The notes beneath the pieces were generated by a model. That model was not told the DNA's origin and searched no databases. It saw nothing but the letters and a program-made list of their open reading frames with translations. A program made the position numbers and the translations under genes. 64,000 bases of DNA, taken from the NCBI GenBank assembly GCA_036253495.1, contig GCA_036253495.1_4125.1; one strand, given 5' to 3'. Position 1 is the first letter of the stretch. Every line of letters begins with the position of its first letter. Positions 8,876 to 48,734 of the stretch are shown in pieces. This DNA is from a phage.

Positions 8876-8900
8876 AAAAGGAGCCTATGGCTCCTTTTTT
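8876..8900. terminator. bidirectional intrinsic terminator (GGAGCC-TATG-GCTCC, flanked by A-run and T-run)
   Basis: Perfect hairpin between convergent genes 8614-8874 (+) and 8902-9276 (-). Confidence 0.6.
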
Positions 8901-8901
8901 A

Positions 8902-9276
8902 TTATGCTTTTTTACGTAGGATGTATTGTCCATTATGTAATTTAATTTTGTGAATCATGTACATAGTGCAAAACCCTTCAATACCTGCTTCTTCATCTTT
9001 CAATTTAATGAAGAAAGTATTATCTCTTAGGCTTTCTACAAGGCTTTCATCTGAATCTTCGAAATTCATGATATATGAATCTTTATTTCTATACACCATC
9101 TGAACATATTCATAAACCTTACCGCTTTCATCGATTAGATCATAAGTATGTGCTGAACGTTGTTTTAAAATATATAGTTTACCAAGAATAGCTGCTCCAT
9201 TAATTTTAGCACCAGTAATTTCGATACCATTAATAGAAAAAGGAAGTCTTCCGGTTAATGCAATTGGTTTACCCAT
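8902..9276 (-). CDS. paralog A of inverted cassette (shared N-terminal domain only)
   Basis: Shares LPF-x-I-GG-I, AKI-GxxL, LY-x-QRS-x-YDLI, IKL-NG motifs with the two neighbours; start set at MGKPIALTG by paralog alignment (track ORF extends to 9318). Confidence 0.5.
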   Translation of the reverse strand: MGKPIALTGRLPFSINGIEITGAKINGAAILGKLYILKQRSAHTYDLIDESGKVYEYVQMVYRNKDSYIMNFEDSDESLVESLRDNTFFIKLKDEEAGIEGFCTMYMIHKIKLHNGQYILRKKA

Positions 9277-9336
9277 TATTATTATACTTCTCCAAGTAAA
9301 GTGCATGATAATTTTCATGCACTATATTATTAAAAA

Positions 9337-11763
9337 TTAAGCACTGATTGTTACAGTTGCAGTATCAGTTTTATTGCCATTCGCAGTAGTCACTGTAATG
9401 ACTACAGTACCTTCTTCTAGAGCAGTTACTAATCCATCATCACTAATAGATACTTTAGTAGGTTCATCTGCACTATAAGTTACTGATTTGTTAGTTGCGT
9501 TAGCTGGAAGAACTTCTGGAACTAGTTGAACTGTTTTAGTACCTGATAGTGAAAGATCAGTGGCTTTAGGTGTTAAACCAACGCTGGATACTGGTACTGG
9601 AATATTAACAGTTACAGCACATTTTGCAGTTTTTGCACCATCAGTAGTTTTTACAGTGATATCAGCAGTACCGTTTGCAACAGCAGTGATTAAACCACTT
9701 GCACTAACAGTTGCGACCCCAGCAGCAGAAGTACTATAAGTTACTGCTTTGTTAGTTGCATTAGCTGGTAGTACAGTTGGTGTTAGTTGTTGAGTTGCAC
9801 CAACAGATGTTAAAGTTGCTGTTGTTGGAGAAACAGAAACACTAGCTACAGGAACTGGGATTGACACAGTAATGACACCTTGACCTGTTTTACCACTTCC
9901 ATCAGCGGCAGTTGCGATAATGTTTGCAGTACCGTTAGTTAACGCAGTTACAACACCAGTACTAGCATCAACTTTCGCTACAGCAGGTGCACTAGAAGAC
10001 CATGTTACAGCTTTATTAGTTGCGTTAGCTGGAAGAACTTCAGCAGCCATTGCTTGAGTTGCGTTAACAGCAGTCAATGTTTTAGTTGCTGGTGTAACAT
10101 TAATAGTTGTTACTGGAACTGGAATTGCTACAGTTACTGCACAAACCGCAGTTTTTGCACCATCAGCGGTTGTTACGGTGATGTTAGCAGTGCCATTTGC
10201 TACAGCAGTTATCAATCCTGAAGTGCTAACAGTTGCTACACCCGCATTAGAAGTACTATAAGTTACTGCTTTATTGGTTGCATTAGTTGGTGCAACCGAT
10301 GGTGTTAGTTGTTGTGTTGCACCAACAGATCTTAAAGTTGCTGTTGTTGGAGAAACAGAAACACCAGTTACTGGTACTGGAATATTAACAGTTACAGCAC
10401 AAACTTTACTAAAGCCACCATCAGCAGTAGTAGCCGTGATATTAGCAGTGCCATTCGCTACCGCAGTGATTAAACCACTTGTACTAACGGTTGCAACACC
10501 AGCAGCAGAAGTTGCGTATGTTACTGCTTTGTTACGAGCATTAGCTGGTAGAACAGTTGCAGTTAATTGCTGTGTTGCACCAACAGAAGTTAATGAAGCG
10601 GTTGCAGGTGTTAGGTTAATACCAGTTACTGGGATCGTCACATCAATAATTGATTGTGCGGTTTTTTCACCATCAATAGTTGTTACGGTAATAGTGGCAG
10701 TACCATTATTAACAGAAGTTACTAAACCGTCATCATCAACTTCTGCTACTGTAGGTGCAGAAGATTCATAACGAACTTCCTGATTTGATGCAGTTCTTGG
10801 TAGTACCGTTGCTGTTAATGGTTCATTTGCACCAATAGTAGTGAATGTATATGTTTCAGGTGTTAACGTAACACCAGTTACTGCTGTTTGAACTTTAATA
10901 GAAGAAGTATCAGTAAATGAACCATCTTCAGATGTTGCAGTAATAGTAACATCACCATTGGATACACCTGTTACCAACCCAGAATCTTTATCAACTGTTG
11001 CAACGGATGGAGCAGATGAAGTCCATATAACTTTCTTGTCTGTTGCTGAGGCCGGAGTAACTTCAGCTAACAATTGTTGAGTTGACCCAACGTTTACAGT
11101 TGCAGATTTAGGAGAAACGGTAACACCAGTAACACCAGTACTGACAACGATAGAACACACATCTGTGAAATCACCATCGTGAGTTGTTACGGTTACATCA
11201 GCATTGCCATTTGCAAGTGCAGTTGCTAGACCTGTTTGAGCATCAACTTCAACGATTGTAGGAGCAGATGAAGAGTAGGTTACTGCCTTGTCTTTTGCAT
11301 TAGATGGAACTACTTGGGCTGATAGTTGTTTTGTTGCACCAACTTTAAGAGATGCATCTTTGGGTGTAATTACAACACCAGTTACGGGGATATCAGCATT
11401 AACATAATCGCGTTTTACGATACGACCATTATTTAATTTAATAACACGACCCATATAAAGCATAGTATACCCCATGCTAATACCATCATCAACATAGATC
11501 ATGAATGAATTGTCTTGAACCATATTAATTGCGTCTGCTGGTTCAACAGAATTTGGAATGTCGATACCACGAGTATCATACCAACGCATGGAAACTTTGT
11601 AATAGATATCACCATTATCATTGATGAGATCATACACGTTACCGGAACGTTGACGGTTAATATATAAAGTTTCCGTTAACACCTTACCATCGATTTTAGC
11701 GACAGAAACTTTAATACCACCAATACCAAAAGGCAATTTACCTTCACTAGATATTGCTTTCAT
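9337..11763 (-). CDS. Ig-like (Big_2-type) repeat protein with paralog N-terminal domain
   Basis: 808 aa; N-terminal ~130 aa paralogous domain followed by at least 9 tandem ~88-aa repeats (VTGV..P....L.VG.T.QL...V.P.NAT.K.V.Y.SS...VATV...GL.TAV..G.A.IT..T.DG). Confidence 0.7.
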   Translation of the reverse strand: MKAISSEGKLPFGIGGIKVSVAKIDGKVLTETLYINRQRSGNVYDLINDNGDIYYKVSMRWYDTRGIDIPNSVEPADAINMVQDNSFMIYVDDGISMGYTMLYMGRVIKLNNGRIVKRDYVNADIPVTGVVITPKDASLKVGATKQLSAQVVPSNAKDKAVTYSSSAPTIVEVDAQTGLATALANGNADVTVTTHDGDFTDVCSIVVSTGVTGVTVSPKSATVNVGSTQQLLAEVTPASATDKKVIWTSSAPSVATVDKDSGLVTGVSNGDVTITATSEDGSFTDTSSIKVQTAVTGVTLTPETYTFTTIGANEPLTATVLPRTASNQEVRYESSAPTVAEVDDDGLVTSVNNGTATITVTTIDGEKTAQSIIDVTIPVTGINLTPATASLTSVGATQQLTATVLPANARNKAVTYATSAAGVATVSTSGLITAVANGTANITATTADGGFSKVCAVTVNIPVPVTGVSVSPTTATLRSVGATQQLTPSVAPTNATNKAVTYSTSNAGVATVSTSGLITAVANGTANITVTTADGAKTAVCAVTVAIPVPVTTINVTPATKTLTAVNATQAMAAEVLPANATNKAVTWSSSAPAVAKVDASTGVVTALTNGTANIIATAADGSGKTGQGVITVSIPVPVASVSVSPTTATLTSVGATQQLTPTVLPANATNKAVTYSTSAAGVATVSASGLITAVANGTADITVKTTDGAKTAKCAVTVNIPVPVSSVGLTPKATDLSLSGTKTVQLVPEVLPANATNKSVTYSADEPTKVSISDDGLVTALEEGTVVITVTTANGNKTDTATVTISA
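9400..10780 (-). repeat. tandem ~261-264 bp DNA repeats encoding Ig-like domains
   Basis: Near-identical segments such as GTTACTGCTTTGTTAGTTGCATTAGCTGGTAG recur at about 9478, 9738, 10003, 10261, 10520. Confidence 0.65.
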
Positions 11764-11829
11764 ATACTTTCCTTTATAAATTGTATTGTAGTGTTATATT
11801 ATTTATATTATACCAAAAGTATTTTAGGA

Positions 11830-11857
11830 TTAAAAAAAGGAGTCCGAAGACTCCTTA
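11830..11857 (-). terminator. intrinsic terminator (minus strand) downstream of 11868-12383
   Basis: Hairpin AAGGAGTC-CGAA-GACTCCTT followed on the minus strand by a U-run. Confidence 0.55.
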
Positions 11858-11867
11858 AAATATAAAG

Positions 11868-12383
11868 TTATTGGAAACGAGCATACGGTGGGAATCTGGT
11901 TTGGTCAGGCCAATCTTTCGGAGAGAAGTAAGCAGTGAATTGCATTTTATCATTTGAATAAAGAACAAAATCATCTGGCTTTATTATAACTTTAGACAAC
12001 GAATTTGGCTCCACGTTCGTTCTTCTGAAAATTATTTCACCATTATGTAATTTTATTTTATTACTTTGATATTGAATACCAAAACCATACTTATTATTAA
12101 TAGCATCAGCTTCTTTTATGCAAAATGTATTATTTGCTAAAGATTTAGCAATTTCAGCATCGTCATCATCATACAACAATGTTGATTTATCTTTATTTCT
12201 ACCTGTGATTTTTATATCTTTGTAAATCTTGAAATTTTCAGATATTAAATCATATGAATCGAATGTTCTTTGTTTTATAACATACAATTCTTTAACAAAT
12301 ACTTGCCCTTCTATCTTTGCAGCAGTAACCTGCAATCCACCTATAACAAATGGAAATTGATCTAAGCCAGCTATTGGTTTCAT
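11868..12383 (-). CDS. paralog C of inverted cassette
   Basis: 171 aa; shares N-terminal domain with 8902-9276 and 9337-11763; SD AAGGAGATG on minus strand. Confidence 0.55.
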   Translation of the reverse strand: MKPIAGLDQFPFVIGGLQVTAAKIEGQVFVKELYVIKQRTFDSYDLISENFKIYKDIKITGRNKDKSTLLYDDDDAEIAKSLANNTFCIKEADAINNKYGFGIQYQSNKIKLHNGEIIFRRTNVEPNSLSKVIIKPDDFVLYSNDKMQFTAYFSPKDWPDQTRFPPYARFQ

Positions 12384-12581
12384 AACATCTCCTTACCTTA
12401 AAAATGGGATTGTAAACTGCCTCCCAATATGATACCATAGTTCAAATGGTCAATTGGTAAATCAATGAACTTAACAAAAACACTTGATACTACAGTCATA
12501 ATTGTTCAGTTTTGCACTTGACATAATTGATCAATTATTGTACTATTATTTATGTTCCTTAACTCAAATCCGAGGTAATCA

Positions 12582-16399: not shown

Positions 16400-16463
16400 G
16401 AAGTGTCTGAGTCTATAATCTACCGTAGAGCACAAGGATGTGCTCATAACTCAAGGATGTTTT

Positions 16464-17903
16464 ATGAAAAAATACACAATTGACACAAACGTACTACTAT
16501 CCGATCCAAATGCAACCGTAGCATTTGATGGGGCAGCAGTGATTCTACCATTCACTGTTCTTGAAGAACTTGATTCAATCAAGAGCCGTAATGTTGACGT
16601 ATCACGTGATGCACGTTTCGCAATCCGTAACATCGATGCAATTCTGAAAGATGCTACTCATGAAGAAATCAGCAGTACTGGTGTTAATATTGCCAATATC
16701 CACAAAAATATGGATGCATCCAGTAAGCTATTCGTTATGACGAATGAAGAAGCTGAAGCACTTATTCGTATGGGCGGCAGTGAAGATAAAGTAGAAACTC
16801 TACTTAAAAGTACTGTACCAGATGACAAAATCATTCTAGTGGCTTTGGCATCACAATCAGTACTGGTAACTCGCGACATTAACATGCGTATCAAAGCAAT
16901 GAGCTACGGTGTTGAGGTACAAGATTACCGTCATGACGTTGCAATCGAAGATAGTGAGTTGATTCATATTGGTCAGCACCACCTTGATATTGATTTCTGG
17001 AAAACATTCAGTGAAGTTAATAATGCTGAAATTAAATCCCAACAAGAAGGTCGCCGTCTATATCACTATATTCCAACCGCATTGATTCAAGATGTTCTAC
17101 CAGATAATCTATGTATTGGTGATTATCTATATGATAATGCTGATGTACTATTCGTATACGAAGGTCAATCTGCTATCGAAGAAGAAGACGGTTCACTAAC
17201 ACCTGAAGATATTTTGGTATTCCAGGATATTGGTCAAAGTATCGCTCTTCGTGCTAAAGTTTGGGATATTAAAGCAAAGAATATTCAACAGGCACTAGCA
17301 ATTAACAGTATTCTTGACCCTGATGTACATTTGACAGTACTACTCGGTTCAGCAGGTACTGGTAAAACATTGATTACTGTTGCTACTTCACTCGAATTAG
17401 TGCTGGAAAAACGTAAATACGATCGTATAATCTTCTCCAAAACACAAGATTCTCAATTTGAAGAAATTGGTTTCTTGCCTGGTTCTGAAGCTGAAAAGGT
17501 CATCCCATTCTGTGGGGCTGCAATCGATGCTCTAGAGTATCTACACAAAGATGATGCTAACCCACAAGGTAGCATTGAAGAGATTCTCAAACGTAACGTA
17601 ATGCAGTTTAAAGCATTGAACTTTATTCGTGGTCGTTCTTTCACTAATACAATTCTAATTGTAGATGAATTCCAGAACATCACCCCTGCACAGGCAAAGA
17701 CTATTCTTACCCGTGCTGGACAAAACTGTAAGGTTATCATTATGGGTAACTTAGCACAGATTGATAGTAAGTTTATTAGTCCAGTGAACAGTGGTTTGAC
17801 ATATGTAACTGAAAAATTCAAAGATTGGGAAGGTTGCCGTATCATTGAATTGGAAGGTGTAGTACGTTCTGCACTCGCTGAGTTTGCAGAAGAAAATATG
17901 TAA
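16464..17903 (+). CDS. phoH: PIN-domain / PhoH-like ATPase fusion
   Basis: N-terminal PIN-like segment KKYTIDTNVLL; Walker A LLGSAGTGKTL; ATG at 16464 preferred over track start 16440. Confidence 0.78.
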   Translation: MKKYTIDTNVLLSDPNATVAFDGAAVILPFTVLEELDSIKSRNVDVSRDARFAIRNIDAILKDATHEEISSTGVNIANIHKNMDASSKLFVMTNEEAEALIRMGGSEDKVETLLKSTVPDDKIILVALASQSVLVTRDINMRIKAMSYGVEVQDYRHDVAIEDSELIHIGQHHLDIDFWKTFSEVNNAEIKSQQEGRRLYHYIPTALIQDVLPDNLCIGDYLYDNADVLFVYEGQSAIEEEDGSLTPEDILVFQDIGQSIALRAKVWDIKAKNIQQALAINSILDPDVHLTVLLGSAGTGKTLITVATSLELVLEKRKYDRIIFSKTQDSQFEEIGFLPGSEAEKVIPFCGAAIDALEYLHKDDANPQGSIEEILKRNVMQFKALNFIRGRSFTNTILIVDEFQNITPAQAKTILTRAGQNCKVIIMGNLAQIDSKFISPVNSGLTYVTEKFKDWEGCRIIELEGVVRSALAEFAEENM

Positions 17904-17910
17904 TCTATTA

Positions 17911-17939
17911 TTGACATTAAATGTGTTCATTGCTATAAT
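17911..17939 (+). promoter_or_regulatory. consensus sigma70-type promoter (TTGACA-17nt-TATAAT)
   Basis: TTGACA 17911-17916, 17-nt spacer, TATAAT 17934-17939; inverted repeat GTGTTCAT/ATGAACAC straddles the -10. Confidence 0.6.
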
Positions 17940-17971
17940 GAACACACCATTATCGAAGAAGGAAGTAAATC

Positions 17972-18160
17972 ATGGCTAAACAACCTAAGAAAAAAGAACC
18001 AGAAGTTAAAGTTAAAAAAGTGAAAGTTATTCAATCCAAAGAACAACGCACTTATGAGCTACGTAAAGCTGAAACTTTAAGTGGGCTTCAGTCTCTACGT
18101 AAGCAAGGTGTACTAACACGTGCACAATATCGTGAACTGGTTGCACAAAAAGGTTTTTGA
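17972..18160 (+). CDS. small basic protein
   Basis: 62 aa, Lys-rich N-terminus; SD AAGGAAG. Confidence 0.45.
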   Translation: MAKQPKKKEPEVKVKKVKVIQSKEQRTYELRKAETLSGLQSLRKQGVLTRAQYRELVAQKGF

Positions 18161-18304
18161 TTTAACGCGTTTTTTTGGAGTTCTTAATAAATACTTTCAT
18201 AAGAATAATAATACTTTTTATGAATTTAAAAAGAACTCCATGTGTTATTTCAGTAAGTTTTTCATCCCTGTCAATTGGCAGGGATTTTTTATTGGTGGTA
18301 AACT

Positions 18305-19051
18305 ATGGATCTTGAAAAACAAACCGAAGCAATCATCACCGAACTAATCAAAATTGGTTATAAATGCCCATTTATCTATGGTTCGTGGAATACTTTTTGT
18401 TTGTATAAGTATGATGACAAATTACCAAATGATATTGATGTTATTAATATAGTACCAGAAGAGTTTGAAGAAGGTGAGTTCTCTGTAAAATTAGATTGTA
18501 TTGATATACCTGTCAATATTGAATGTATGACTCTCAATCATCTTCGTGTCGAATTAATGCGTGGTGATGTTAAATACTATACCATCGGTTTTGGTACTAT
18601 TGTACCGAAATGTGCAAATCATCTTTTGATGTACCTTGGTCATATCGGTTCGGTTATGATGACACGCCGTAACAGTGAGATTCGTAAAATTTGCAGTACT
18701 GCATCAGATAAAGCCTTTAATAAAGGAAAAAAGAAGTTGACAGTACTGGAAGATTACGATAAGATGTTAGGACTAAAGAACATCTGGCATAGCATTCACT
18801 TCATCTATATCATTACGCATTATTACAATCTGTACAGATCCAACACTGAACATGAAATGAATATTGCGTCAATGAAACAAGAGTTTGATGTGCTTGAAAT
18901 GCTGAACATTCGCGACAACATATATAAGATATATGATGAAACATATGGTGATTATCATGTAAAAGCACAAGCTGTTATTGATTATGCGAAACCGATTCGT
19001 AACAAACTGATGACTGAATTTAGAAAATTATACCCCAAGGAGGATGTATGA
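18305..19051 (+). CDS. hypothetical protein with nucleotidyltransferase-like GS...DxD motif
   Basis: YGSWNTFCLYKYDDKLPNDIDVI fits a loose Pol-beta NTase pattern; weak. Confidence 0.4.
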   Translation: MDLEKQTEAIITELIKIGYKCPFIYGSWNTFCLYKYDDKLPNDIDVINIVPEEFEEGEFSVKLDCIDIPVNIECMTLNHLRVELMRGDVKYYTIGFGTIVPKCANHLLMYLGHIGSVMMTRRNSEIRKICSTASDKAFNKGKKKLTVLEDYDKMLGLKNIWHSIHFIYIITHYYNLYRSNTEHEMNIASMKQEFDVLEMLNIRDNIYKIYDETYGDYHVKAQAVIDYAKPIRNKLMTEFRKLYPKEDV

Positions 19052-33602: not shown

Positions 33603-33634
33603 TTAAGCCTGTCTATTGACAGGCTTTTCTTTTA
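33603..33634 (+). terminator. intrinsic terminator (GCCTGTC-TATT-GACAGGC then TTTTCTTTT)
   Basis: Perfect hairpin after tail-fibre block. Confidence 0.6.
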
Positions 33635-33666
33635 TCCGTATAATGCTAAAAAACTAGGAGGAAACT

Positions 33667-34227
33667 ATGGTACAATCACGTTTTAGACCACCGCTGTCAC
33701 CAGCACAGTTACAACGTTTAAAAGAAAAAGAGCAGCACTTTCAGAATACCCTAGTAGTTCGTTTGCTATGCAAAAGTGTAACTCTTAAAGATTTTGTGAA
33801 AACCGATAATGAACGTAAATCACTTATCGAACTTAAGTACAAGTTAAGTAAGCATAAACTATATGGATTACTAGCAGAATACACCCAAAATCCATTCAGT
33901 GATCGTTGGTCTATGGTTCAAAAAAAACTGTGGGGTGGTGATGAAGAATTCACACTACGTGATTTAAAAAATGCAATCATGTTTAAGGTCGATTATACAC
34001 CAGCAGGGATTGAACACAGAACCGAAGAAACTATCATTCAATCAAGAGATTTATCATGTGTTGTTTCTTCAAACTTCGGTGTTCATTATGATATGCTTGA
34101 TGACGATGAGTTAATGATCCTGTTCCATGTGATTATTGGTGCTGAAGATATTAAAGAAAAGTTATCACAAATTGAAGAAGAACAGCGTAAATTCAAAATC
34201 CAAAAGAGAATAACTGATTTATATTAA
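33667..34227 (+). CDS. hypothetical protein, paralog family member 1 of 3
   Basis: 186 aa; shares TD-(N/E)-(E/D)-R motif region and coiled-coil-like C-terminus with next two genes. Confidence 0.45.
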   Translation: MVQSRFRPPLSPAQLQRLKEKEQHFQNTLVVRLLCKSVTLKDFVKTDNERKSLIELKYKLSKHKLYGLLAEYTQNPFSDRWSMVQKKLWGGDEEFTLRDLKNAIMFKVDYTPAGIEHRTEETIIQSRDLSCVVSSNFGVHYDMLDDDELMILFHVIIGAEDIKEKLSQIEEEQRKFKIQKRITDLY

Positions 34228-48288: not shown

Positions 48289-48699
48289 ATGAATTATGCT
48301 TGGATGGAAATTGTAAAATCTCTCGTATCAACACATGATGTTGATTTACCAGATAGTCTAGTATTTAATAGATGGTACTATCCATATCCAGAGGACCGTA
48401 GGGTTGGAATTGGATTTTTTATTAATGATAAATCTAATTTGATTGGATTAATTGAAGATCTGAAATCCAACGTAGTGTCGTTCTCAATTGAGTTTAATGA
48501 CGATCACATAAAATACTACACCAGTAAAATGGACGAAGACGATGTTATAATCCCTATGGATATAGATGAAGCTTCATTTTTTCAGTTATCATTGATTTAT
48601 GATCTATCTAACATTACTTATGATAATGTGAAAGACCTTTTTATATTGTACAATAAAATGTATAATTACTTTTTAAGACCTTTTTATATTGTACAATAA
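48289..48699 (+). CDS. hypothetical protein
   Basis: 136 aa ORF. Confidence 0.45.
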   Translation: MNYAWMEIVKSLVSTHDVDLPDSLVFNRWYYPYPEDRRVGIGFFINDKSNLIGLIEDLKSNVVSFSIEFNDDHIKYYTSKMDEDDVIIPMDIDEASFFQLSLIYDLSNITYDNVKDLFILYNKMYNYFLRPFYIVQ

Positions 48700-48734
48700 A
48701 ATGTATAATTACTTTTTATAACAGAGGTATAGTG

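What the first reader, a model, noticed from the sequence alone, without database searches (positions are those of the whole stretch)
17911..17949. Perfect consensus promoter with an inverted repeat overlapping the -10 element
TTGACA, a 17-nt spacer and TATAAT form a textbook promoter; an 8-bp inverted repeat GTGTTCAT/ATGAACAC brackets the -10 and the start site, as an operator would. It drives a small Lys-rich protein, which could be an autoregulator or a nucleoid-associated factor.
Basis: seen in the sequence. Interest (0 to 1): 0.35.

Follow-up and report, generated by a model that had tools for sequence, protein, structure and literature searches.

The report
Phage early promoter with overlapping stem-loop
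This is a host-type (sigma-70) early promoter of a giant E. coli phage, wrapped in a short hairpin-forming repeat; it matches the promoter/stem-loop cassettes already described in T4-type phages, so it is ordinary and is probably not a repressor binding site.

Summary
TTGACA-17-TATAAT (17911-17939, with a TG extended -10) is a perfect consensus. The window has two such sites against 0.05 expected. The inverted repeat is longer than reported: 10 bp, TGTGTTCATT/AATGAACACA, with a 5-nt loop.

The window is an Asteriusvirus (RaK2-like) jumbo coliphage, 98% identical to phage A4. The site lies in the 68-nt gap between a PIN-PhoH gene and a conserved 62-aa basic protein.

All relatives keep a -10/TG promoter before this gene, and some keep the full consensus. 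The repeat sequence is not conserved, although the protein is 76-90% identical within Asteriusvirus-type relatives. Instead, a stem-loop of differing sequence lies upstream of -35, over -35, or around -10. Turkey5-type phages have it in the window's register, with two compensatory T-A to C-G changes.

This matches the PeSL cassettes of T4-type phages RB49/phi1: sigma-70 consensus, AT-rich upstream, stem-loop, then SD/ATG. The operator/autoregulator reading is therefore not supported.

Best reading: a strong early promoter, plus a hairpin that forms only in read-through RNA from PhoH and acts as an attenuator or 3' stabiliser. The attenuator role is inferred, because there is no U-tract.

New member of a known kind; low interest.

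The parts
16464..17903 (+). Upstream gene: PIN-PhoH fusion protein (479 aa). Its read-through transcripts would contain the whole hairpin.
   Evidence: Pfam PhoH E=1e-43 and PIN_4 E=1e-21; phrog_2765; annotated PhoH-like in phage A4.
17887..17910 (+). AT-rich stretch upstream of -35. It includes the PhoH stop codon at 17901-17903.
   Evidence: Read directly from the sequence: CAGAAGAAAATATGTAATCTATTA is about 75% A+T (18 of 24). It shows no strong UP-element match.
17911..17916 (+). -35 hexamer TTGACA
17922..17931 (+). Left arm of the inverted repeat, TGTGTTCATT. It lies in the promoter spacer.
   Evidence: 10-bp perfect repeat; folds.
17931..17939 (+). Extended -10 element TGcTATAAT (hexamer at 17934-17939). 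The hairpin loop GCTAT is 17932-17936.
   Evidence: 12/12, TG before the second hexamer. The TATAAT hexamer is kept in all relatives, and a TGn extension in all but RaK2/Muenster.
17937..17946 (+). Right arm of the inverted repeat, AATGAACACA. It covers the last 3 nt of the -10, the discriminator and the predicted start site.
17946..17946 (+). Predicted transcription start (A, 7 nt after the -10). This is inferred, not mapped.
   Evidence: Inferred from standard sigma-70 geometry. RNA starting here is unusually unstructured: -0.5 kcal/mol, z = +2.0.
17959..17965 (+). Shine-Dalgarno sequence AAGGAAG
   Evidence: Sequence. AAGGAG/AAGGA is kept in relatives and is unpaired in all folds.
17972..18160 (+). 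62-aa basic protein: Lys-rich disordered N-terminus plus a helical hairpin. Function unknown.
   Evidence: ORF; phrog_24119 E=7e-33; weak SHOCT E=0.028, below cut-off; 13 homologues; AF2 model pLDDT 78, helices 23-44 and 50-59.
18264..18291 (+). Intrinsic terminator: a 9-bp G+C-rich stem followed by a T6 run. It probably ends the small gene's transcript.
   Evidence: Annotated as a terminator in G17 and UE-S1. Invariant stem in 10 relatives.

Best explanation
The site is a composite early-promoter/stem-loop cassette of a RaK2-like (Asteriusvirus) jumbo coliphage. It has the same design as the PeSL (promoter-early stem-loop) cassettes of T4-type phages.

Proposed mechanism:
1. Right after infection, host RNA polymerase with sigma-70 binds TTGACA-17-TGcTATAAT and starts near A17946.
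2. The roughly 26-nt leader is unstructured and carries an AAGGA Shine-Dalgarno sequence, so the 62-aa basic protein is made at a high level.
3. The transcript ends at the terminator at 18264-18291.
4. The inverted repeat is not an operator. It forms a 10-bp/5-nt hairpin only in RNA that reads through from the upstream PIN-PhoH gene, because promoter-initiated RNA starts at the last base of the right arm.
5. In that read-through RNA, the hairpin sits 18 nt after the PhoH stop codon. It most likely acts as an attenuator and/or a 3'-end stabiliser that separates the two transcription units.
6. As a second property, the cassette is a junction where gene modules have been exchanged between related phages.

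Status of each step: shown here are the consensus, the hairpin potential, conservation of the promoter, the shifting position of the stem-loop, the compensatory changes and the mosaic joints. Inferred are the start site, early timing and the attenuator/stabiliser role.
For: Promoter: 12/12 plus TG; two such sites against 0.05 expected. A promoter with TATAAT and a 16-17 nt spacer precedes the same gene in all relatives, and is 12/12 in A4, RaK2, Muenster and L024.

Expression design: promoter-initiated RNA is nearly structure-free, z = +2.0.

Hairpin: 10 perfect pairs, z = -6.2 as DNA and -2.5 as RNA for the whole gap. In the 11 gaps that follow PIN-PhoH, a stable stem-loop lies between the PhoH stop and the predicted start, with z from -2.2 to -5.0. 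Its sequence and position differ: upstream of -35 with a T-run (RaK2/Muenster), over -35 (L021, L024, G17/121Q, TH47), or around -10 (window/A4, Turkey5, L016-18). EJP2 has its own terminator after PhoH plus a 7-bp repeat over -35.

Covariation: against the Turkey5 type, two pairs changed T-A to C-G on both sides, and no stem position changed on one side only. G-U pairs allowed only on the + strand RNA occur in L021 and in the second cassette at 33605 compared with G17.

[quoted passage not shown] A tested stem-loop acted as a terminator/attenuator (PMC2839356; PMC4122927). RpoD-like early promoters are predicted in the RaK2-like phage CBB (PMC5259590).

Recurrence: 3 of 6 intergenic promoter-like sites in the window carry a repeat of 8 bp or more, against 3% of random windows.

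Mosaic joints inside the cassette: the JNE01 cassette matches L011 upstream and Turkey5 from the SD onward. L011 switches from an unrelated upstream gene to TH47-like sequence at the -10.
Against: - No U-tract follows the stem (tail CCATTATCGA), so the terminator scan does not call it. Nearly every other intergenic hairpin in the window does have a T-run. Termination is therefore at best partial, and the RNA role is inferred.
- Covariation rests on only three distinct sequences, effectively two lineages. The shuffle control is weak: 56 of 500 shuffles reach the observed score.
- Templated quasi-palindrome mutation could keep the arms complementary without selection.
- The cassette is single-copy by BLAST in phage A4, whereas RB49/phi1 PeSLs are sequence-conserved repeats.
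- L011/JNE01 and L019/L020, where the gene follows another gene or a full terminator, have only weak repeats at the promoter.
- No transcript data exist for this phage group in the library searched.
Confidence: 0.55

Rival explanations
1. Operator. The dyad 17922-17946 binds a dimeric repressor, either the 62-aa protein itself or another phage or host factor. This blocks the -10 and start site and shuts the promoter off after the early phase.
For: A perfect 10-bp dyad spans -24 to +1, the classical place for a repressor. Keeping dyad symmetry in the Turkey5 type also fits a co-evolving dimeric binder. The SHOCT domain has been proposed, without proof, to bind nucleic acid (PMC3581485).
Against: - The dyad sequence is not conserved, while the candidate autoregulator is 76-90% identical within Asteriusvirus-type relatives.
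- In other lineages the repeat sits over -35 or upstream and has an unrelated sequence.
- Half-sites are not enriched at other promoters.
- The protein has no recognisable DNA-binding fold, and its SHOCT hits are below Pfam's cut-off.
- From my own recall of E. coli regulator consensus sites, none matches the dyad. This was not tested with a tool.
Confidence: 0.1
2. No function of its own. The repeat is a by-product of recombination or of templated (quasi-palindrome) mutation in a fast-changing intergenic cassette. Only the promoter matters.
For: The cassette is a mosaic joint. Stem sequences and positions turn over quickly between lineages. Covariation statistics are weak. About 1-2 repeats of this length are expected by chance in 64 kb. 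From my own knowledge, template-switch correction of quasi-palindromes is documented in phage T4.
Against: All 11 gaps that follow PhoH keep a significantly stable stem-loop, z from -2.2 to -5.0, despite the sequence turnover. Within the arms, no change is uncompensated between window and Turkey5, while the flanking spacer and leader differ freely. G-U pairs are strand-specific.
Confidence: 0.2
3. DNA-level element. The palindrome mainly serves as a hotspot or substrate for recombination, as suggested for PeSL crossovers and mini-circles, rather than acting in RNA.
For: Crossovers map inside the cassette in JNE01 and L011. [quoted passage not shown]
Against: The cassette has no second similar copy in phage A4 to recombine with. 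The observed joints lie at the -10 and at the leader/SD, which are the sequence-conserved parts, not at the stem. A recombination role does not explain pairing-preserving changes.
Confidence: 0.1

Closest known systems
PeSL (promoter-early stem-loop) cassettes of T4-type phages RB49/phi1, also PST/T4 and nt-1/KVP40 (Arbiol et al. 2010, PMC2839356; Comeau et al. 2014, PMC4122927)
   Same: Both are intergenic. Both run stop codon, AT-rich stretch, sigma-70 consensus -35/-10, stem-loop, SD, then ATG. Stem-loop position varies between cassettes, and 'overlapping the -10 box' is a named common subclass. Both sit before small genes of unknown function, and both lie at mosaic joints between related phages.
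   Different: This one is in a RaK2-like jumbo phage, not a T4-type phage of that study. The stem is A+T-rich, without polyG/polyC. There is no U-tract. By BLAST the cassette is single-copy in the genome, so it is not a sequence-conserved repeat family. Terminator activity and mini-circles were not tested.
RpoD-like early promoters predicted in RaK2-like phages (vB_PcaM_CBB, GAP32; PMC5259590)
   Same: Same phage group. Both are TTGACA/TATAAT-type consensus sites clustered before short hypothetical genes taken to be early.
   Different: Those were MEME predictions with an UP-like element and no mention of overlapping stem-loops. Here the UP match is weak and a stem-loop is present.
Repressor operators that overlap -10/+1 (for example LexA boxes or lambda-type operators; from my own knowledge)
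   Same: A perfect dyad covers the -10 and the start site.
   Different: The dyad sequence is not conserved with its proposed binder, it moves along the promoter between lineages, it changes by pairing-preserving substitutions, and no regulon of similar sites was found.
T4 stem-loops that contain a promoter, so that long and short transcripts fold differently (genes e, soc, 49, I-TevI; from my own knowledge)
   Same: Only RNA from upstream contains both arms. RNA from the internal promoter cannot form the hairpin.
   Different: In T4 the 3' arm hides the ribosome binding site and the internal promoter is a late one. Here the SD is unpaired in both RNAs and the promoter is sigma-70 type.

Membership tests
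PeSL cassette | [quoted passage not shown] | tested here: met
   12/12 with a 17-nt spacer plus TG.
PeSL cassette | AT-rich region with the upstream stop codon just before -35 | tested here: met
   17887-17910 is about 75% A+T (18 of 24) and contains the PhoH stop codon TAA.
PeSL cassette | Stable stem-loop within or next to the promoter, in one of five positions including overlap with the -10 | tested here: met
   10-bp stem around the -10. Homologous cassettes show three other positions.
PeSL cassette | SD and start codon of the downstream gene at the 3' end | tested here: met
   AAGGAAG at 17959-17965 and ATG at 17972.
PeSL cassette | Repeated, sequence-conserved motif (about 100 bp) present many times in the genome | tested here: not met
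   BLAST finds one place only in phage A4. Other promoter/stem-loop cassettes in the window (12518, 13192, 33616) share only the hexamers.
PeSL cassette | Sits at insertion/deletion/replacement joints between close relatives (modular shuffling) | tested here: met
   JNE01 and L011 cassettes are chimeras with joints at the -10 and at the leader/SD. The small gene follows three different upstream genes. The 248-aa gene downstream is absent in G17-type phages.
PeSL cassette | Stem-loop terminates or attenuates upstream transcription; promoter active in vivo | not testable with these tools
   Needs reporter assays or transcript end mapping.
Intrinsic (Rho-independent) terminator | G+C-rich stem followed directly by a U-tract | tested here: not met
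   Only 3 G-C pairs of 10 and the tail is CCATTATCGA. It is not listed by the terminator scan.
Repressor operator with the small protein as autoregulator | Dyad sequence conserved together with the regulator in relatives | tested here: not met
   The protein is 76-90% identical within Asteriusvirus-type relatives. The dyad is absent or different in the G17, TH47, L021, L024 and RaK2 types, and altered on both arms in Turkey5.
Repressor operator with the small protein as autoregulator | Regulator has a recognisable DNA-binding fold | tested here: inconclusive
   The model is a disordered basic tail plus a helical hairpin. There are no significant PDB hits by sequence or fold.
SHOCT domain (PF09851), for the 62-aa protein | Score above Pfam's gathering cut-off (27 bits) | tested here: not met
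   14.6 bits, E=0.028. The EJP2 homologue scores 18.5 bits, E=0.0016.

The most novel reading that the evidence does not exclude
The stem-loop is under selection to lie anywhere between the upstream stop codon and the next start site. It works without a U-tract because RNA polymerase parked on the consensus promoter acts as a roadblock, so hairpin plus roadblock together release read-through polymerases. That would be a promoter-coupled way of insulating adjacent early transcription units. It would explain why the stem 'walks' along the promoter between lineages while pairing is kept.
Probability: 0.08. Interest if true: 0.55.

Novelty: new member of a known kind. Interest (0 to 1): 0.2.

Why it matters
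If the reading is right, the cassette design described for T4-type phages also operates in the distantly related RaK2-like jumbo phages. That design combines a strong host-type promoter fused to a stem-loop, placed before small accessory genes and at recombination joints. This helps annotate early transcription units in 350-kb genomes that are mostly 'hypothetical'. It also marks the 62-aa basic protein as a probable highly expressed early product. It does not open a new mechanism.

Tried and rejected
- IMG/VR search with the small protein found only phage 121Q.
- The single metagenome scan, using the conserved 5' coding pattern, gave one true relative of the G17 type and five unrelated hits. 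No further sequences of the -10-hairpin type were obtained, so covariation power stayed low.
- Rfam gave no credible family for 17000-19000.
- PDB sequence and fold searches for the small protein gave nothing significant. The best was the eL19 C-terminal helices, at E about 0.1 by sequence and E=1 by fold.
- Host-regulator sites (CRP, LexA, Fur, NrdR, DeoR) were considered from memory and rejected. Spacing and half-sites do not fit, and the Turkey5 arms differ.
- An RNase III site was rejected because a 10-bp stem is too short (own knowledge).
- Sequestration of the SD was rejected because the SD is unpaired in every fold.
- A 5' stabilising hairpin from a weak upstream promoter (TTTGCA-17-TATTAT, 9/12) was rejected as a chance-level match lying in coding sequence.
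- The homology break seen after the second cassette at 33667 proved to be fast divergence of the downstream gene (35% identity), not a replacement.

Full report
**Where the window comes from**

The 1-kb stretch around the finding is 98.3% identical to Escherichia phage A4 (ON286972, genus Asteriusvirus, 355 kb). It is about 81% identical to 121Q, PBECO4, G17, phAPEC6 and other RaK2-like jumbo phages. The 74-nt gap itself is 100% identical to A4. Almost all genes in the window lie on the + strand.

The finding sits in a 68-nt gap. Upstream is a PIN-PhoH gene at 16464-17903 (Pfam PhoH 1e-43, PIN_4 1e-21). Downstream is a 62-aa ORF at 17972-18160.

**Checking the observation**

TTGACA (17911-17916), a 17-nt spacer and TATAAT (17934-17939) are there, with TG giving an extended -10. 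The exact pattern occurs twice in the window, against 0.05 expected; 0 of 100 shuffles reach 2. Both copies are intergenic, on the coding strand, and shortly before a start codon.

It has 10 perfect pairs, TGTGTTCATT (17922-17931) and AATGAACACA (17937-17946), with loop GCTAT.
- It is one of four perfect repeats of at least 10 bp in the window.
- Only 0.4% of random 62-nt windows hold one that long.
- The hairpin folds at -9.1 kcal/mol as DNA, z = -6.2.
- It dominates the RNA fold of the gap: -13.7 kcal/mol, z = -2.5.

**Comparison with relatives**

I collected the homologous gap from annotated phages and from metagenome contigs that carry homologues of the small protein.
- Annotated phages: A4, G17, UE-S1, Turkey5, TH47, vB_Ec-M-J, CMSTMSU, ph0011, RaK2, JNE01, EJP2 and Muenster.
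- Metagenome contigs.

Every one has TATAAT, mostly with a TG extension, and a -35-like hexamer 16-17 nt upstream, followed by AAGGAG/AAGGA and ATG. A4, RaK2, Muenster and L024 have the perfect 12/12 site, and Turkey5 has 12/12 with a 16-nt spacer. The promoter is therefore conserved across two genera. This fits the RpoD-like early promoters predicted for the RaK2-like phage CBB (PMC5259590).

The repeat behaves differently from the promoter. Its sequence is not conserved, although the small protein is 76-90% identical within Asteriusvirus-type relatives. Instead, the 11 gaps that follow PIN-PhoH each contain a stable stem-loop of their own, with z from -2.2 to -5.0. Position varies by lineage:

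| Lineage | Stem-loop | Position |
|---|---|---|
| RaK2, Muenster | 12-bp stem with a T-run | upstream of -35 |
| L021, L024 | GTACTGAACA / TGTTCAGTAC | brackets -35 |
| G17/121Q, TH47 types | GGGAC-loop-GTCCC | -35 lies in the left arm |
| EJP2 | 7-bp stem (fold) | over -35 |
| Window/A4, Turkey5/L016/L017/L018 | 8-10 bp stem | around -10 |

Window and Turkey5-type stems are in the same register. They differ at two pairs, each changed on both sides from T-A to C-G, with no one-sided change inside the stem. The unpaired spacer and leader around them differ freely.

With only three distinct sequences the shuffle control is weak (56 of 500). I treat this as suggestive, not decisive. G-U pairs that work only on the + strand RNA occur in L021. 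They also occur in the window's second perfect-consensus cassette at 33605-33644 when it is compared with G17.

**What this matches in the literature**

Arbiol et al. (PMC2839356) and Comeau et al. (PMC4122927) described PeSLs in T4-type phages. These are intergenic cassettes with a stop codon in an AT-rich stretch, a sigma-70 consensus promoter, a stem-loop, then SD and ATG.

They distinguish five subclasses by stem-loop position: upstream AT-rich region, over -35, between the boxes, over -10, and after -10. [quoted passage not shown] One stem-loop was shown to act like a strong terminator, and the promoters were too strong to clone intact. They proposed that the stem-loops attenuate transcription coming from upstream, and that the cassettes are recombination points that shuffle small genes.

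The anatomy here fits point for point. The positional classes I see across orthologous gaps are the same ones.

**Other cassettes in the window**

Three further sites show a promoter with an overlapping repeat:
- 12518: TTGACA-17-TACTAT, with a 16-bp palindrome in the spacer.
- 13192.
- 33616: 12/12, with a T-run terminator over -35.

**Mosaic joints**

- JNE01's cassette is identical to L011 upstream and identical to Turkey5 from the SD onward.
- L011 changes from an unrelated upstream gene to TH47-like sequence at the -10.
- The small gene follows PhoH, a CapR-like gene or a YadA-like gene in different contigs.
- The next gene (248 aa, 18305-19051) is missing in G17-type phages.

**Where membership in the PeSL family fails or is untested**

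The cassette has no second similar copy in A4, so it is not part of a sequence-conserved repeat family. The stem is A+T-rich and has no U-tract, and is not called by the terminator scan. Nearly all other intergenic hairpins in the window do have a T-run. Terminator activity cannot be tested here. My conclusion is that it works like a PeSL and has PeSL architecture, but homology to the RB49/phi1 family is not shown.

**Most likely mechanism**

Host sigma-70 polymerase starts near A17946. This is inferred from geometry. RNA from that point is unusually open, at -0.5 kcal/mol with 199 of 200 shuffles folding at least as well, and it has a good SD. The gene is therefore built for high early expression and ends at the terminator at 18264-18291.

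Both arms of the repeat are present only in RNA that reads through from PhoH. There the hairpin forms 18 nt past the stop codon. It probably attenuates read-through and/or protects the 3' end of the upstream message. The SD is not sequestered in either RNA.

**The small protein**

It has a disordered Lys-rich N-terminus and two helices, 23-44 and 50-59, with mean pLDDT 78.
- Pfam SHOCT scores below threshold: E = 0.028 here and 0.0016 for the EJP2 homologue.
- No significant PDB match by sequence or fold.
- PHROG family of unknown function.
- SHOCT's function is itself unknown; nucleic-acid binding was only a hypothesis (PMC3581485).

Nothing links the protein to the repeat.

**Rivals**

- **Operator.** It is disfavoured by four things: the dyad is not conserved, it changes position between lineages, its changes preserve pairing, and no similar sites occur elsewhere.
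- **Functionless by-product.** This stays possible because comparative power is low and palindromes can be maintained by templated mutation.
- **Purely DNA-level recombination role.** This is weakened because there is no partner copy and the joints lie at the -10 and leader/SD rather than in the stem.

**Verdict**

The feature is real. It is an ordinary early promoter/stem-loop cassette of a known kind in a phage group where the design has not been spelled out. The operator/autoregulator interpretation is not supported.

Noticed in passing
window 18170-18291: About 115 nt of non-coding DNA after the small gene is nearly invariant in 10 lineages whose flanking genes are only about 80% identical. 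It has a 9-bp stem GGAGTTCTT/AAGAACTCC enclosing an ATAAATA motif (like the late-promoter motif reported for CBB/GAP32) and the conserved block AAGAATAATAATAC, followed by the terminator. Indels of 1 and 4 nt rule out coding. L021 lacks 20 internal nt. In L019/L020 the module sits upstream of the small gene, after a YadA-like gene. There is no Rfam match and no covariation, because it is too conserved. It could be a small late RNA or a regulatory switch.
   Followed up: partly
window 16428-16458: A hairpin GAGCAC-AAGGAT-GTGCTC lies just upstream of the PIN-PhoH start. Its loop AAGGAT is identical to the gene's Shine-Dalgarno sequence 14 nt further on. G17, ph0011 and vB_Ec-M-J have GAGTAC/GTACTC, a compensatory C-G to T-A change. 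It may be a translational control element.
   Followed up: partly
window 33605-33666: This is the second perfect TTGACA-17-TATAAT site. A 9-bp terminator hairpin with a T-run supplies part of the -35. The cassette is better conserved in G17/ph0011 than the downstream gene (35% protein identity). One stem pair is compensatory and one is a G-U pair.
   Followed up: partly
window 12518-12546: A promoter-like TTGACA-17-TACTAT site has a perfect 16-bp palindrome, ATAATTGATCAATTAT, filling the spacer. It lies in the divergent gap between a minus-strand gene block (8902-12383) and the plus-strand genes.
   Followed up: no
window 15642, 20194, 50992; G17-type loci L002/L010: GGGACA-16-(TG)ATATAAT/TATGAT sites recur. 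The same GGGACA replaces TTGACA in the G17-type version of the cassette studied here. This may be an alternative -35 for a phage-modified or phage-encoded sigma factor, or just the arm of a hairpin.
   Followed up: no
window 48632-48718: A perfect 43-bp tandem duplication (2.0 copies, 100% match) contains TATAAT and spans the end of gene 48289-48699 and the gap before 48735.
   Followed up: no
window 8902-12383: This is the only sizeable block of minus-strand genes in the window (138, 808 and 171 aa). It is flanked by a bidirectional terminator-like hairpin at 8876-8898 and by the divergent promoter gap at 12384-12581.
   Followed up: no
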